Notes: generated by a model not told the origin, from the sequence alone. 64,000 bases of DNA from a virus (IMGVR_UViG_3300028666_000001:128086-192085); one strand, 5' to 3'; shown: positions 9,513 through 22,833, numbered from the stretch's first letter. Translations and numbers: made by a program.

Positions 9513-11390
9513 ATGGCCTCAGTAATTTTTAGTAATGCACAAAGAATAATTGCACAAATTTTTGAGTGGTTGCAAACAACTGCTCAAGATAAGGTAGATA
9601 ATCTTATCACAGATACATTTTCGGCTGGGATAGATAATGCTACTACATCAGGTGAGGGATTCCTTGTAGTTCCTGGAACTAATAATACATCTGCAAGCCC
9701 TTCTGTGAATGTTACTCTTGGTGGGATTGCTTATGATCCAATCGGCAATAGAATTTTTATTAGCCCTACCGATGTTACTCTCTATAATGCTGCAAATGCT
9801 ACAGCCACTACGAATGATGGATTAGGTAATCTCCTTCCTACTCCACAATCTTCTGGTGTGATCAATATTCCTTTAACTCAATCTTCACAGAATTATCTTT
9901 GGATAGATTATCTTCCTGCCATTGATACATCTGCTTTTACATTGAATGAAGAAACAAATGCTAAGATTTTCTATAAACAAGTCGATGGCTATACAATTAG
10001 AGTAACAACTATCAATGTACCTCCAGATGCTAATTCTATTTTTCTAGCCTCTGTTAATATGACATTAGGTGGAGCTGTAGCATTTTCGAATATCTCTCAA
10101 GTTGGTCGTATCTACTATCAAATTCTGCCAAAAATTGTCCCAATCATAACCCCATTGGCAGATTTTTCAGATCGTACTCCACAGTATAATCCTGCTACGA
10201 CATATACATTAGAAGCACATATTAAAGCTGTTGGAACTGGTCCAGGTATTAGTCCTTTCAATCCTCATAATACATCATTGGCTGATTTAGGTATTTCTGC
10301 ATTAGATACTGTAGTCGGGCGTAGTCAAATTGAAGGTAATAACAATGTTATTTTGGCTGGAACAGTTGGAAATCCTTTTCCTTCTACTTCTGCTTTTGCA
10401 ACAAGTATTAATATTGTGAATCCTGGCAGTGATACACTTAATGTCTTTCAACTTCTCTCTTCTGAATATGCTATCATTAATGGTGTTGCTTTTAATGTTA
10501 CTGCTGTTTTCGGATTAATTCCTATAAATGCTACAGTAGGTTTTCCAGATTCTTCTGGTACTTACAATGTTTATTGGGACTCCGTTACTAAAGTTTTTGC
10601 AGTAACAACTGCAAGTATTGCTTCAGATGTCACTAAGTTATGGATTGCAACGGTTACATACTCATTCGTTGGGCATGGAGTTTCAGATCATAATGCTCTT
10701 TCTGGATTAATAGATCGTAGGTTAATCGGAGGTGCAACTAACTTATTGCAACGTTGGACTACATTAGGAAGACCAGCAAATCCACTAGTAGGTGAGTTTG
10801 GTTTTAATATTACATTAAATGCATTTGAATTTTGGGATGGAACTGCTTGGCAGCAATCTGTTGTTACTTCCACTAATGGAACTGTTCCAACTGGAGCTAT
10901 GCTTGACTTTGCAGGAACTGTTGCTCCTACAAGTTATCTGTTATGTGATGGATCAGCTGTCAGTAGAACAGTTTATGCCGCTTTATTTTCGGCTATTGGA
11001 ACAACTTGGGGATTCGGAGATGGAAGTACTACGTTTAATGTACCTGATATTCGAAGACGTGCTACTGCAGGTTCAGGTGGTGCTGCCACAGGTGTATTAG
11101 GTAATACTGTCGGAAATGTAGGTGGATCAGAAACACATACATTAACTATTCCAGAAATTCCAGCACATAGTCATGGTATAAGTGATCCTGGACATACTCA
11201 CGTTACAGTCAGAGCAATTGGAGCTTCAAACGGTGGTGGTTCTGCTCTTCTATCACCTCCTCAAGTTAACGTTGGTCCAATTTTCACTGAGGCTTCTGTA
11301 ACTGGTATTTCAGTTCAAAATACTGGTGGTAATGGTCCACATACTATTGTGCAACCAACTGCCATTGTTCTAAAAATTATTAAAATCTAA
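9513..11390 (+). CDS. Tail fibre protein with phage tail collar domain
   Basis: VPTGAMLDFAG..AP..YLLCDGSAVSRT.YAALF.AIGTTWG.GDGSTTFNVPD and GGSETHTLT..E.P.HSH. Confidence 0.9.
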   Translation: MASVIFSNAQRIIAQIFEWLQTTAQDKVDNLITDTFSAGIDNATTSGEGFLVVPGTNNTSASPSVNVTLGGIAYDPIGNRIFISPTDVTLYNAANATATTNDGLGNLLPTPQSSGVINIPLTQSSQNYLWIDYLPAIDTSAFTLNEETNAKIFYKQVDGYTIRVTTINVPPDANSIFLASVNMTLGGAVAFSNISQVGRIYYQILPKIVPIITPLADFSDRTPQYNPATTYTLEAHIKAVGTGPGISPFNPHNTSLADLGISALDTVVGRSQIEGNNNVILAGTVGNPFPSTSAFATSINIVNPGSDTLNVFQLLSSEYAIINGVAFNVTAVFGLIPINATVGFPDSSGTYNVYWDSVTKVFAVTTASIASDVTKLWIATVTYSFVGHGVSDHNALSGLIDRRLIGGATNLLQRWTTLGRPANPLVGEFGFNITLNAFEFWDGTAWQQSVVTSTNGTVPTGAMLDFAGTVAPTSYLLCDGSAVSRTVYAALFSAIGTTWGFGDGSTTFNVPDIRRRATAGSGGAATGVLGNTVGNVGGSETHTLTIPEIPAHSHGISDPGHTHVTVRAIGASNGGGSALLSPPQVNVGPIFTEASVTGISVQNTGGNGPHTIVQPTAIVLKIIKI

Positions 11391-19450: not shown

Positions 19451-19479
19451 TTGACATTTTTATCTACTCCTGTTATAAT
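19451..19479 (+). promoter_or_regulatory. sigma70-type promoter
   Basis: TTGACA-17-TATAAT. Confidence 0.92.
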
Positions 19480-19485
19480 AAATCA

Positions 19486-19574
19486 GAGTGGTGTACGGCG
19501 TAATGGAGAACGGTACTCCATCCCAATGAAATGGGTTGCCCTTAGATACGAGTTCGACTCTCCTCACCCTCCCA
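19486..19574 (+). ncRNA. tRNA-like RNA / pseudo-tRNA
   Basis: Starts at predicted TSS; GAG(T)GGTG/CACCCTC stem followed by CCA; GAG-TTCGACT-CTC T-loop; no valid anticodon arm. Confidence 0.5.
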
Positions 19575-22142: not shown

Positions 22143-22171
22143 TTGACATTGTTAAGTACTCATGTTATAAT
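22143..22171 (+). promoter_or_regulatory. sigma70-type promoter
   Basis: TTGACA-17-TATAAT. Confidence 0.92.
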
Positions 22172-22175
22172 AATA

Positions 22176-22251
22176 GTGGGAGTGATCGTGGGTTCGATTC
22201 CCACCTGCTGCCTTCGGGCGGCGGTAGCTTAATGGGCAAAGCAGCTCCCAC
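22176..22251 (+). ncRNA. Circularly permuted tRNA-mimic RNA (YrlA/Y-RNA-like tRNA module)
   Basis: Closing stem GTGGGAGT/GCTCCCAC; T arm GTGGG-TTCGATT-CCCAC; acceptor-like stem CTGCTGCC-TTCG-GGCGGCGG; D arm TA-GCTT-AATGGGCA-AAGC. Confidence 0.8.
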
Positions 22252-22271
22252 AAATTTAAAGGGAGGATTAA

Positions 22272-22514
22272 ATGAAAAGACAACCGTATACCAAAGAAGA
22301 GAAAGATGCGATTGTTGCACAGGGTGAAGTACGGCTTGGAGTGCATAATTTTATTGACTTCGTAATTGAACCAGTTGTAGTTGGTCTACACCCAGAAGAA
22401 TGTCGTTGCACAGCATGTATCCATGCTTATTTAGAGGCTATGGAGAAAAGATCTGCTGAGTATACTGCTCAGCTCGAAGAAAATCAAATTGAGGAGATTA
22501 ACTATGTTGGCTAA
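22272..22514 (+). CDS. Small hypothetical protein (H..C.C..C)
   Basis: GGGAGG SD; directly follows the tRNA-mimic. Confidence 0.65.
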   Translation: MKRQPYTKEEKDAIVAQGEVRLGVHNFIDFVIEPVVVGLHPEECRCTACIHAYLEAMEKRSAEYTAQLEENQIEEINYVG

Positions 22515-22833
22515 AAAATTGTTTACCTTGATTCTTTGCCTTGGAGTTTTAGCCCCTGTATATGCTGCAGAGTCTTACAAAGATCTTTCTCATGAGTACA
22601 ATCTGGTATTTCAAGATTTTCTCAGAAAGAAAATTGTAAAGCTCCCTAAGAAGGCTACTGTTGAAGTTTTTTTAAAAGATGGAACGAGTGTAAAGGGAAC
22701 CTTTGAGGGTTTCTCCAAATATGATGATGGATTTTGGATTCTGCCTCTTGGTAAACGTGGTTTGTTTGCTGATGATGCCTATGATATCAGTGAGATCCAG
22801 GATGTAAGGATTATTATTCTGCGGAGCATCTAA
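22504..22833 (+). CDS. Exported small protein, possibly Sm/LSM-like fold
   Basis: Signal peptide; VEVFLKDGTSVKGTFEG resembles the Sm1 motif. Confidence 0.5.
   Translation: MLAKKLFTLILCLGVLAPVYAAESYKDLSHEYNLVFQDFLRKKIVKLPKKATVEVFLKDGTSVKGTFEGFSKYDDGFWILPLGKRGLFADDAYDISEIQDVRIIILRSI

What the first reader, a model, noticed from the sequence alone, without database searches (positions are those of the whole stretch)
22176..22251. Promoter-driven circularly permuted tRNA mimic with no anticodon
Seen: starting ~5 nt after a perfect TTGACA-17-TATAAT promoter, the order is closing stem, T arm (TTCGATT), acceptor-like stem sealed by a C-UUCG-G tetraloop, D arm (TAGCTTAATGGGCAAAGC), closing stem. The RNA ends lie where the anticodon arm should be, so it cannot be charged or decode. 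Established: this topology matches the tRNA-like module of bacterial YrlA Y RNAs. However, the long Ro-binding stem is missing and no Ro/TROVE gene is in the window. Inference: a minimal tRNA-elbow decoy (for tRNA-targeting defence nucleases, T-box sensors or modification enzymes), or a 5'-stabilising/regulatory leader for ORF 22272.
Basis: partly seen in the sequence, partly recalled or inferred. Interest (0 to 1): 0.8.

Follow-up and report, generated by a model that had tools for sequence, protein, structure and literature searches.

The report
Anticodon-less inside-out tRNA mimic, no Ro
A 192-kb phage starts one of its strongest transcripts with a 76-base RNA that is a whole tRNA body written in rotated order, with no anticodon loop and no free acceptor end. 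It matches the tRNA-like half of bacterial Y RNAs but lacks their Ro60-docking stem, and the phage has no Ro60 gene, so it is a rare stand-alone version whose job is still a guess.

Summary
Window 22176-22251(+) folds as closing stem, T arm, capped 8-bp acceptor-like hairpin, D arm, closing stem (z -3.66). It starts 4 nt after a perfect extended TTGACA-17-TATAAT promoter.

It is a real, selected RNA. Two related phage contigs carry homologues, also 5 nt after a promoter of the same family. In the 3-sequence alignment, 10 of 25 pairs show double compensatory changes, and a 9-nt tail CACAAAUUU is invariant. Rotating it back and adding any anticodon loop makes ARAGORN call a tRNA.

It matches only the tRNA-like half of YrlA (31 bits against a cut-off of 69). 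There is no long terminal stem and no GNCGAA site. The complete genome has no TROVE, DUF2828/DUF7788 or RtcB. As a control, seven other phage records with long-stem permuted mimics all encode TROVE.

Downstream sequence differs in each phage (a small ORF; a leader plus a deacetylase gene; about 530 nt without ORFs). So it is a portable module at the transcript's 5' end, not a regulator of ORF 22272.

Function is inferred. Most likely it is a nuclease-resistant tRNA-shaped 5' end that tRNA enzymes recognise. A released elbow decoy is the main rival. It is a new variant of a known kind, seen in only three related phages. This scan has noted Ro-linked and DUF7873-linked permuted tRNA mimics on other DNA, but not this stemless form.

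The parts
22143..22171 (+). Sigma-A/sigma-70-type promoter: -35 TTGACA (22143-22148), 17-nt spacer with TG at 22163-22164, -10 TATAAT (22166-22171)
   Evidence: 12 of 12 consensus matches. One of 3 perfect sites in 192 kb. Member of a family of about 24 conserved phage promoters with shared flanks. Transcription itself is not shown.
22176..22183 (+). Closing stem, 5' strand (GTGGGAGT). It corresponds to the 3' strand of a tRNA anticodon stem. The predicted transcript start (22176-22178) lies inside it.
   Evidence: Folds. 5 of 8 pairs show double compensatory changes across three phages. The distance from the -10 is 4-5 nt in all three.
22184..22187 (+). Variable-loop-like linker (GATC)
   Evidence: Unpaired in folds. 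Its sequence differs in the homologues.
22188..22204 (+). T arm: GTGGG-TTCGATT-CCCAC, with the T54 T55 C56 R57 A58 consensus
   Evidence: The stem covaries at 2 of 5 pairs in G024.
22205..22224 (+). Acceptor-like stem of 8 bp closed by the tetraloop C(UUCG)G. There is no free 3' end, discriminator base or CCA.
   Evidence: In G003 it is 7 bp of different sequence with an AUUU loop. In G024 it is an irregular capped arm.
22225..22243 (+). U8-A9-like TA, D arm GCTT-AATGGGCA-AAGC (A14, G18 G19, A21 equivalents), and A26-like A
   Evidence: The D stem is kept in all three with one compensatory pair. G003 has a 23-nt insertion in the D loop.
22244..22251 (+). Closing stem, 3' strand (GCTCCCAC). It corresponds to the 5' strand of a tRNA anticodon stem.
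22249..22257 (+). Tail CACAAATTT, invariant in the three homologues. It marks the 3' boundary of the shared module and is a candidate processing or standby site (inference).
   Evidence: Similar C-AAATTT tails follow the second tRNA-like RNA at 19486-19574 and its L147 homologue.
22261..22514 (+). Shine-Dalgarno GGGAGG (22261-22266) and ORF80 (22272-22514). They would be co-transcribed with the module, since no terminator lies between.
   Evidence: ORF80 is poorly conserved and has no Pfam or PHROG hit.

Best explanation
Shown:
- The element is a conserved, non-coding tRNA body in rotated order. It has every arm of a tRNA except the anticodon loop, and its acceptor stem is sealed by a loop.
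- It sits so that a strong host-type promoter should start the RNA within the first 1-3 nt of the closing helix.
- It has the architecture of the effector (tRNA-like) half of YrlA Y RNAs, but lacks the Ro60-binding half.
- The phage has no Ro60-type gene.
- It is a portable module, found in front of different downstream sequences in three related phages.

Inferred mechanism:
- The RNA folds into an L-shaped tRNA look-alike whose 5' triphosphate end is buried in the helix.
- This gives the transcript a compact, nuclease-resistant, tRNA-shaped 5' end. Such an end would be shielded from 5'-end-dependent decay in Bacillota (RppH and RNase J1 need unpaired 5' nucleotides).
- No helix is long enough to be an RNase III substrate.
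- Enzymes that read the tRNA elbow are expected to recognise it: T-loop and D-loop modification enzymes, and possibly RNase P at the capped 7-8-bp acceptor stem, as happens with Mycobacterium smegmatis YrlA.
- The invariant CACAAAUUU tail may be where the module is cut from, or joined functionally to, what follows.
For: Fold and tRNA likeness:
- The fold is well supported.
- YrlA aligns over the tRNA-like part only.
- After in-silico re-rotation with any of three anticodon loops, in both stem-length variants, ARAGORN calls a tRNA in 6 of 6 cases.

Selection for structure:
- Homologues exist in G003 (54.5 bits with model R1, 79 with R2) and G024 (27 bits with R1, 76 with R2).
- 10 of 25 pairs carry double compensatory changes, spread over all helices. 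94.6% of cells are paired, 0 of 500 shuffles reach the observed score, and slid controls give 37-50% pairing.
- Indels and stop codons exclude a coding reading.

Position at the transcript start:
- The -10 hexamer lies 4-5 nt from the closing stem in all three phages, although the promoter spacers differ.
- Most other promoters of this family give leaderless or very short-leader messages.

Portability:
- Downstream lies ORF80 here, a structured leader plus a deacetylase gene in G003, and about 530 nt without ORFs and then the ORF114 homologue in G024.
- No terminator lies between the module and ORF80.

No Ro system:
- PF05731, PF01139, PF11443 and PF25043 are all negative in the complete genome.
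- tblastn with P100 gp165, gp160 and gp155 is negative.
- There is no long-range stem and no GNCGAA or ACAGCAA motif.

Precedents in print:
- Chen et al. 2014 (PMC4201824) propose that the very stable tRNA fold protects Y RNAs from nucleases. [quoted passage not shown]
- Listeria phage CKA15 makes very abundant non-coding RNAs from near-consensus sigma-A promoters (PMC12282133).
Against: - There is no transcript, end-mapping, modification or half-life datum for any member.
- A plain hairpin would protect a 5' end just as well. The strict retention of the T-loop and D-loop consensus and of the tail suggests a specific binding partner, which fits a trans-acting role as well or better.
- In G024 the module precedes about 530 nt without an ORF.
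- In a looser analogue (G025) a similar RNA heads a tRNA operon. This looks more like a stable-RNA gene than an mRNA cap.
- The family has only three members in one phage lineage. The covariation counts are therefore small and were made on an alignment fitted to the model.
Confidence: 0.4

Rival explanations
1. Trans-acting elbow decoy or adaptor. The module is released from the primary transcript, for example at the CACAAAUUU tail. It accumulates as a small RNA of about 80 nt that binds a tRNA-elbow-recognising factor. Candidates are the still unknown effector of YrlA, RNase P, RNase Z, a modification enzyme, or a tRNA-directed defence protein. The RNA would titrate or redirect that factor during infection, without Ro60.
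For: - The elbow nucleotides and the T and D stems are the most conserved parts, while the capped arm and closing stem drift. Wang et al. (10.1101/312249) use the same pattern to argue that YrlA's effector binds the elbow.
- A perfect-consensus promoter suits an abundant stable RNA.
- The tail is invariant although other unpaired parts vary.
- In G024 and G025 it is followed by non-coding sequence or a tRNA, not directly by an ORF.
- CKA15 is a precedent for very abundant phage non-coding RNAs (PMC12282133).
Against: - There is no terminator and no demonstrated processing site. In this window the Shine-Dalgarno sequence starts 9 nt after the stem.
- No partner protein gene is conserved next to it.
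- Decoy targets that read the anticodon (PrrC-type nucleases, T-boxes) cannot be served.
Confidence: 0.3
2. Gene-specific cis-regulator. The closing stem's 3' strand (CUCCC) could alternatively pair with the Shine-Dalgarno GGGAG 10 nt downstream. Folding or unfolding of the tRNA-like domain would then switch translation of ORF80.
For: CUCCCAC (22245-22251) is complementary to GGGAG in the Shine-Dalgarno sequence (22261-22265). G003 also has repeated CUCCUC/GAGGAG strands downstream.
Against: - The module precedes unrelated downstream sequences in the three phages, at 20, about 110 and about 530 nt from the next start codon.
- Purine-rich strands are common near ribosome-binding sites.
- No ligand or sensor is evident.
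Confidence: 0.07
3. A degenerate Y RNA that still works with a Ro60/Rsr protein supplied by the host, or by a phage protein too divergent to detect.
For: YrlA is the only Rfam family that aligns. PF05731 also fails to detect the HHpred-level Rsr-like protein of P100-type phages, so a negative HMM search is not absolute.
Against: - The Ro-binding half is absent. There is no long 5'/3' stem and no GNCGAAN0-1G, and the promoter leaves no room for a 5' strand.
- The complete genome lacks TROVE, DUF2828 and DUF7788, and has no tblastn match to P100 gp165.
- Seven of seven sufficiently complete phage records with long-stem permuted mimics do encode TROVE. The detection method therefore works where the system exists.
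Confidence: 0.05
4. A functionless relic: the junction of two tandem tRNA genes after deletions, which happens to lie behind a promoter.
For: Junctions between neighbouring tRNA genes are the commonest source of the T-arm-then-D-arm pattern in phage DNA.
Against: - All four helices are maintained by compensatory changes across three phages.
- The acceptor stem is sealed by a stable tetraloop with no spacer, discriminator or CCA.
- The position relative to the -10 and the 9-nt tail are conserved.
- The module has moved between loci as a unit.
Confidence: 0.05

Closest known systems
YrlA (Y RNA-like A; Rfam RF02553; Chen et al. [quoted passage not shown] 2018, 10.1101/312249)
   Same: Circularly permuted tRNA-like domain with a T arm, a capped acceptor-like stem and a D arm, the ends leaving through the anticodon-stem position. 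It keeps the conserved elbow nucleotides and has no chargeable end. It is the only Rfam family that aligns.
   Different: No Ro60-binding helix and no GNCGAAN0-1G motif. The score is 31 bits against a cut-off of 69. No Ro60/TROVE gene lies within 4 kb or anywhere in the complete phage genome. The RNA begins at the closing stem directly behind a promoter and runs on into downstream sequence.
Phage Y RNAs beside phage Ro60 genes (22 phages in Chen et al. 2014; Thermus phage Ro60, PMC12135203; examples seen here: L042, L044, L045, L060, L080, L101, L105)
   Same: Phage-encoded permuted tRNA mimics. They score 30-48 bits with the model built from this element.
   Different: Those have long terminal stems and usually an extra anticodon-like hairpin. 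Their records encode TROVE in 7 of 7 cases. This element has neither.
Twin permuted tRNA-mimic RNA next to DUF7873
   Same: Permuted tRNA look-alikes in phages and bacteria that are independent of Ro.
   Different: That RNA is about 370 nt with two modules and follows a conserved 245-aa protein. Here there is one 76-nt module per genome and no conserved neighbouring protein. DUF7873 itself was not searched for.
tRNA scaffolds and tRNA-like processing modules (engineered tRNA scaffold of Ponchon and Dardel 2007; mascRNA of MALAT1). Cited from my own knowledge, not read here.
   Same: A tRNA-shaped domain attached to another RNA gives stability or directs processing by tRNA enzymes.
   Different: In those, the chain ends are at the acceptor stem. 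Here the acceptor is sealed and the rest of the transcript leaves from the anticodon-stem position.
Permuted tRNA genes of Cyanidioschyzon-type algae, and two-piece (permuted) tmRNA
   Same: Rotated gene order of tRNA parts.
   Different: Those mature into RNAs with an anticodon loop or a chargeable CCA end. This element has neither, and its tmRNA matches cover the T arm only.

Membership tests
YrlA / bacterial Y RNA (RF02553) | tRNA-like domain: T arm, capped acceptor-like stem and D arm in permuted order | tested here: met
   The covariance-model alignment covers these parts. Fold. Re-rotated sequence called a tRNA by ARAGORN.
YrlA / bacterial Y RNA (RF02553) | Score at or above Rfam's gathering threshold (69 bits) | tested here: not met
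   31.2 bits here. 18 bits for the G024 homologue.
YrlA / bacterial Y RNA (RF02553) | Long helix formed by the 5' and 3' ends, carrying the Ro60/Rsr site (GNCGAAN0-1G near the 5' end) | tested here: not met
   The promoter abuts the closing stem. No long-range stem forms in 251 nt. No GNCGAA within 125 nt.
YrlA / bacterial Y RNA (RF02553) | Encoded within about 4 kb of a Ro60/TROVE gene on the same strand | tested here: not met
   PF05731 is absent from the complete 192-kb genome. It is also absent from G003 and G024. DUF2828 and DUF7788 are absent. No match to P100 gp165.
YrlA / bacterial Y RNA (RF02553) | Bound by Rsr; modified by TruB and DusA | not testable with these tools
   Needs immunoprecipitation and modification mapping.
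Canonical tRNA (RF00005) | Acceptor stem formed by free 5' and 3' ends; anticodon arm with a 7-nt loop | tested here: not met
   Not called by ARAGORN or RF00005. The acceptor is sealed by UUCG and there is no anticodon loop.
Two-piece / permuted tmRNA | Chargeable CCA acceptor end and a tag reading frame | tested here: not met
   Only T-arm-level matches of 12-14 bits. ARAGORN finds no tmRNA.
DUF7873-associated twin tRNA-mimic RNA (scan-internal class) | Two permuted modules in one RNA of about 370 nt, following a DUF7873 gene | tested here: not met
   There is a single module in the genome by R1 and R2. Neighbouring proteins have no such domain. A genome-wide DUF7873 search was not run because I did not have the accession.
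5'-terminal mRNA stabiliser of Bacillota (works-like claim, not a sequence family) | Stable structure within a few nt of the 5' end of the transcript, which prolongs mRNA half-life | tested here: inconclusive
   The predicted start falls in the first 1-3 nt of the closing helix in three phages. The transcription start and the half-life are not measurable here.

The most novel reading that the evidence does not exclude
Some phages have freed the tRNA-like effector half of a Y RNA from Ro60. They make it as an autonomous, highly expressed elbow mimic that starts exactly at +1. It captures a host factor that binds the tRNA elbow (the still unidentified YrlA effector, RNase P or Z, or a tRNA-directed immunity protein). 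This would be a new class of RNA-based host takeover or counter-defence. Because it is a minimal natural ligand, it could also serve as a handle for identifying the long-sought YrlA effector.
Probability: 0.2. Interest if true: 0.8.

Novelty: new variant of a known kind. Interest (0 to 1): 0.5.

Why it matters
[quoted passage not shown] This element is that domain alone. It has no Ro60 handle, sits in a complete genome without Ro60, lies behind a consensus promoter, and is kept by selection in three related phages.

If it acts in trans, it is a minimal natural bait for whatever reads the Y RNA elbow. If it acts in cis, it is a natural counterpart of the engineered tRNA scaffold: a way to give a message a tRNA-like, nuclease-proof 5' end.

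Either way it widens the known uses of tRNA mimicry in phages. Its weight is limited by its rarity (three contigs of one lineage) and by the lack of any expression data.

Tried and rejected
Searches for homologues that found nothing new:
- Megablast of 3 kb around the element against GenBank phages gave no match.
- tblastn of ORF80 against phages and a peptide scan of viral contigs gave no match.
- Pattern scans of viral contigs gave mostly junctions between neighbouring tRNA genes, plus long-stem Y RNAs. They found no further member except G003.
- The metagenome scan and the genome-collection scan gave only tRNA junctions or weak hits.
- Only the promoter-plus-T-loop pattern found the third member, G024.

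Relatives that lack the element:
- Ten more distant relatives, including a complete 210-kb genome, lack it.
- Listeria phage P100 has no such element.

Origin:
- None of the phage's seven tRNAs matches its arms, so an origin from the phage's own tRNAs is not supported.

Alignment:
- The MAFFT alignment of the two first copies misplaced the stems. I replaced it with model-based alignments.

ORF114 as a protein partner:
- One homologue is labelled Hfq by JGI. The family has a signal peptide ahead of a small barrel domain, and it also occurs in relatives without the RNA. I rejected it as a partner.

Readings considered and rejected:
- An attP or integration remnant. The permuted order, the sealed acceptor and the lack of sign of lysogeny (direct terminal repeats; distant kinship to Herelleviridae-type helicases) argue against it.
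- RNase Z or RNase P docking on the closing-stem limb by pseudo-symmetry. The geometry does not support it.

Full report
**1. The observation**

RNAfold gives one dominant structure:
- an 8-bp closing stem (GUGGGAGU/GCUCCCAC)
- a 4-nt linker
- a T arm, GUGGG-UUCGAUU-CCCAC
- an 8-bp hairpin closed by C(UUCG)G
- UA
- a D arm, GCUU-AAUGGGCA-AAGC
- one A

The energy is -37.1 kcal/mol and the z-score is -3.66; 1 of 200 shuffles folds as well.

The nucleotides that build the tRNA elbow are all present in tRNA register. These are the equivalents of U8, A14, G18 G19, A21, T54 T55 C56 R57 A58 and the G53-C61 pair.

To test tRNA likeness directly, I rotated the sequence back in silico. I used the acceptor 5' strand first, 5 bp of the closing stem as the anticodon stem, and an arbitrary 7-nt loop. 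ARAGORN called a tRNA in all six variants. As written in the genome, neither ARAGORN nor the Rfam tRNA model calls the element.

**2. The promoter**

TTGACA-17-TATAAT with an upstream TG lies at 22143-22171. Only three such perfect sites exist in the 192,085-bp genome. The site belongs to a family of about 24 promoters with shared flanks (aaaata..cc TTGACA ... TGnTATAcT) spread over the phage, so it is very unlikely to be a chance match.

With the usual 7-nt distance from the -10, the start falls on the first to third nucleotide of the closing stem. Most other promoters of this family, here and in relatives, are followed within 5-10 nt by a start codon (leaderless messages) or by a short leader with a Shine-Dalgarno sequence. 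Long structured leaders are therefore the exception.

**3. The genome**

The window is the last third of an IMG/VR virus record of 192 kb. The record has direct terminal repeats and is rated complete. Its helicase is about 30% identical to those of Bacillus and Staphylococcus Herelleviridae. I take the host to be a member of the Bacillota, but that is not shown.

**4. Homologues and selection**

Relatives found through the helicase showed a homologue in G003 (L148:12123-12220). It lies 5 nt after a promoter of the same family, but at another locus, upstream of the deacetylase/GT2 module.

A scan for a consensus promoter followed within 12-26 nt by a T loop found a third, more divergent member in G024 (G024:36832-36924). 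G024 is a relative by protein similarity. This member also lies 5 nt after the -10. It is followed by about 530 nt without ORFs and then the homologue of ORF114.

In the model-based three-way alignment:
- 94.6% of cells are paired.
- 10 of 25 pairs have changes on both sides that keep the pair, spread over all four tRNA-like helices.
- No shuffle out of 500 reaches the observed covariation.
- Sliding the partners by 1-3 columns drops pairing to 37-50%.

Two caveats apply. There are only three sequences, and the alignment was fitted to the model.

The unpaired linker, the capping loop and the 5' flank all differ between members. A 9-nt tail, CACAAAUUU, is nevertheless identical in all three. 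G003 carries a 23-nt insertion in the D loop. No reading frame is shared.

Models R1 and R2 find no other copy in these genomes. They find none in 13 further related records, including a complete 210-kb relative. The metagenome and genome collections gave nothing with the patterns I could use.

A looser analogue (30 bits) in an unrelated contig, G025, sits 10 nt after a consensus promoter and is followed by a normal tRNA.

**5. What it is not**

Rfam's YrlA model is the only family that aligns (31.2 bits, gathering score 69). The alignment is carried by the tRNA-like half.

YrlA is defined by three things (Chen et al. 2014, PMC4201824):
- the tRNA-like domain
- a long helix formed by the 5' and 3' ends, carrying the GNCGAAN0-1G Rsr site
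- a position within about 4 kb of a Ro60 gene

The second and third features were tested and are not met:
- The promoter abuts the closing stem.
- No long-range stem forms in 251 nt.
- No GNCGAA motif, and no ACAGCAA motif (a sequence shared by the terminal stems of many long-stem phage mimics), lies within 125 nt.
- The complete genome has no TROVE and no RtcB.

The paper on Listeria phage CKA15 (PMC12282133) reports an Rsr-like protein seen only by HHpred. I therefore checked its likely P100 counterpart, gp165, chosen for its similar size and its position next to the tRNA genes. It carries DUF2828 and DUF7788 and is invisible to PF05731. My genome has neither domain and no tblastn match to gp165, to the RtcB-like gp160 or to the RNA ligase gp155.

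As a positive control, I looked at the many other permuted tRNA mimics that my scans turned up in phage contigs. They have long terminal stems and usually an extra anticodon-like hairpin. All seven records that are reasonably complete encode TROVE. None of the permuted mimics in the 14 loci scanned, including five of those seven records, reaches Rfam's YrlA threshold.

So Ro-linked phage Y RNAs are common and detectable. This element is a different, stemless form without Ro.

**6. Context and portability**

The block shared by the three phages runs from the first base of the closing stem to the tail. The flanks are unrelated.

In G003 and L147, orthologous promoters downstream of the phosphoesterase gene are followed by two different RNAs:
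- in G003, by this element
- in L147, by a second RNA with some tRNA-like features (an acceptor-like terminal stem and a T-arm-like hairpin) and normal chain topology

My window has that second RNA at 19486-19574. It is also conserved, with compensatory changes, matches no Rfam family, starts at the transcript start and ends in C-AAAUUU.

In other relatives the promoter upstream of the ORF80/ORF114 region gives a leaderless message with no such RNA.

This argues against a regulator dedicated to ORF 22272. It favours an interchangeable module defined by the RNA itself. No protein gene is a conserved neighbour. ORF114 is downstream in two of the three phages. However, it is an exported small barrel protein, and it is also present in relatives without the RNA.

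**7. How it probably works**

Shown: the fold, the selection for it, the position relative to the promoter, the portability and the lack of a Ro system. Everything beyond that is inference.

I rank first a tRNA-shaped 5' terminal domain (confidence about 0.4). My reasons:
- The 5' end is buried in a helix. From established knowledge of Bacillus mRNA decay, this blocks RppH and RNase J1.
- The four short helices avoid RNase III.
- The compact tRNA fold is what Chen et al. themselves proposed protects Y RNAs from nucleases.
- The elbow would also make it a substrate for T-loop and D-loop modification enzymes.
- The 7-8-bp capped acceptor stem could be cut by RNase P. This is documented for M. 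smegmatis YrlA, whose 7-bp capped stem is cut and then receives CCA.

The main rival (about 0.3) is a released small RNA that binds an elbow-reading factor in trans. Three things fit it at least as well: the strict conservation of the elbow and of the tail, the consensus promoter, and the non-coding sequence that follows in G024 and G025.

Ranked low:
- Decoys for anticodon nucleases or T-boxes are unlikely, because both read the anticodon.
- A switch that hides the Shine-Dalgarno sequence. The downstream sequence varies too much.
- A host-Ro-dependent Y RNA. The Ro-binding half is missing.
- A dead tRNA junction. The compensatory changes and the conserved positions argue against it.

**8. Novelty**

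Permuted tRNA mimicry and its presence in phages are known (YrlA; 22 phages in Chen et al. 2014). Earlier notes of this scan describe Ro-linked and DUF7873-linked versions on other DNA; I did not check those notes.

I found no description of a single, stemless module that abuts a promoter in a Ro-less phage (paper searches). I class it as a new variant of a known kind.

Interest is moderate. It is a clean natural experiment on the Y RNA tRNA-like domain. It is also confined to three contigs of one lineage and has no expression data.

Noticed in passing
window 19486-19574 (promoter 19451-19479); L147:12127-12215: A second RNA with some tRNA-like features (acceptor-like terminal stem, T-arm-like hairpin) and normal chain topology starts at another perfect promoter. 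It has a bulged acceptor-like stem, two internal hairpins and a GAG-TTCGACT-CTC arm. It is conserved in a relative with 3 compensatory pairs and matches no Rfam family. It occupies the same slot that the permuted element occupies in G003, and it also ends in C-AAATTT.
   Followed up: partly
G000:C1:37825-38600 (outside the window; L199:1326-2100): The third perfect TTGACA-17-TATAAT promoter of the genome is followed by about 450-700 nt without a convincing ORF. This stretch contains two T-arm-like hairpins (CCAGTTCGATTCTGG and GCTGGTTCAAGTCCAGC) and has no Rfam match. It is a candidate large non-coding RNA.
   Followed up: partly
window 14057, 25435, 54536 and others; L147, L148, L149: This phage lineage has a family of about 24 near-identical strong promoters. 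Many place an ATG 5-8 nt after the -10 hexamer, which suggests wide use of leaderless messages.
   Followed up: partly
L262:1594-2121 (G024:36925-37452): About 530 nt of ORF-free, GC-richer sequence lies between the G024 copy of the element and the ORF114 homologue. It could be a long structured leader or a separate non-coding RNA. It has no Rfam match.
   Followed up: partly
window 22489-22833 (ORF114): A small protein conserved across the lineage, with a signal peptide followed by an Sm/SH3-like barrel motif. One metagenomic homologue is labelled Hfq by JGI, which is probably a mislabel for an exported protein.
   Followed up: partly
L042, L044, L045, L060, L080, L101, L105 and others (viral contigs): Many phage contigs carry long-stem permuted tRNA mimics with an extra anticodon-like hairpin, and their records encode TROVE. 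None of those in the 14 loci scanned (L045, L060, L080, L101, L105 among them) reaches Rfam's YrlA gathering score, so RF02553 seems to under-detect phage Y RNAs.
   Followed up: partly
L029:8971-9618 and 9651-9724: A ROOL RNA (298 bits) is followed about 30 nt downstream by a permuted tRNA-like element, inside a phage tRNA array.
   Followed up: no
L263:1501-1614 (-) and 1310-1385 (-) (G025): In an unrelated phage contig, a consensus promoter drives a permuted tRNA-like RNA that has a 47-nt insertion in its capped arm. A normal tRNA follows about 110 nt downstream. This is a possible independent case of a stemless permuted mimic at the head of a tRNA operon.
   Followed up: partly
L207 (Listeria phage P100, 114000-124800): P100 gp165 ('RNA-binding protein') carries DUF2828 and DUF7788. 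It sits downstream of the tRNA array, with an RtcB-like ligase, an RNA ligase and phosphoesterases nearby. This is an RNA-repair-type neighbourhood that my phage lacks.
   Followed up: partly
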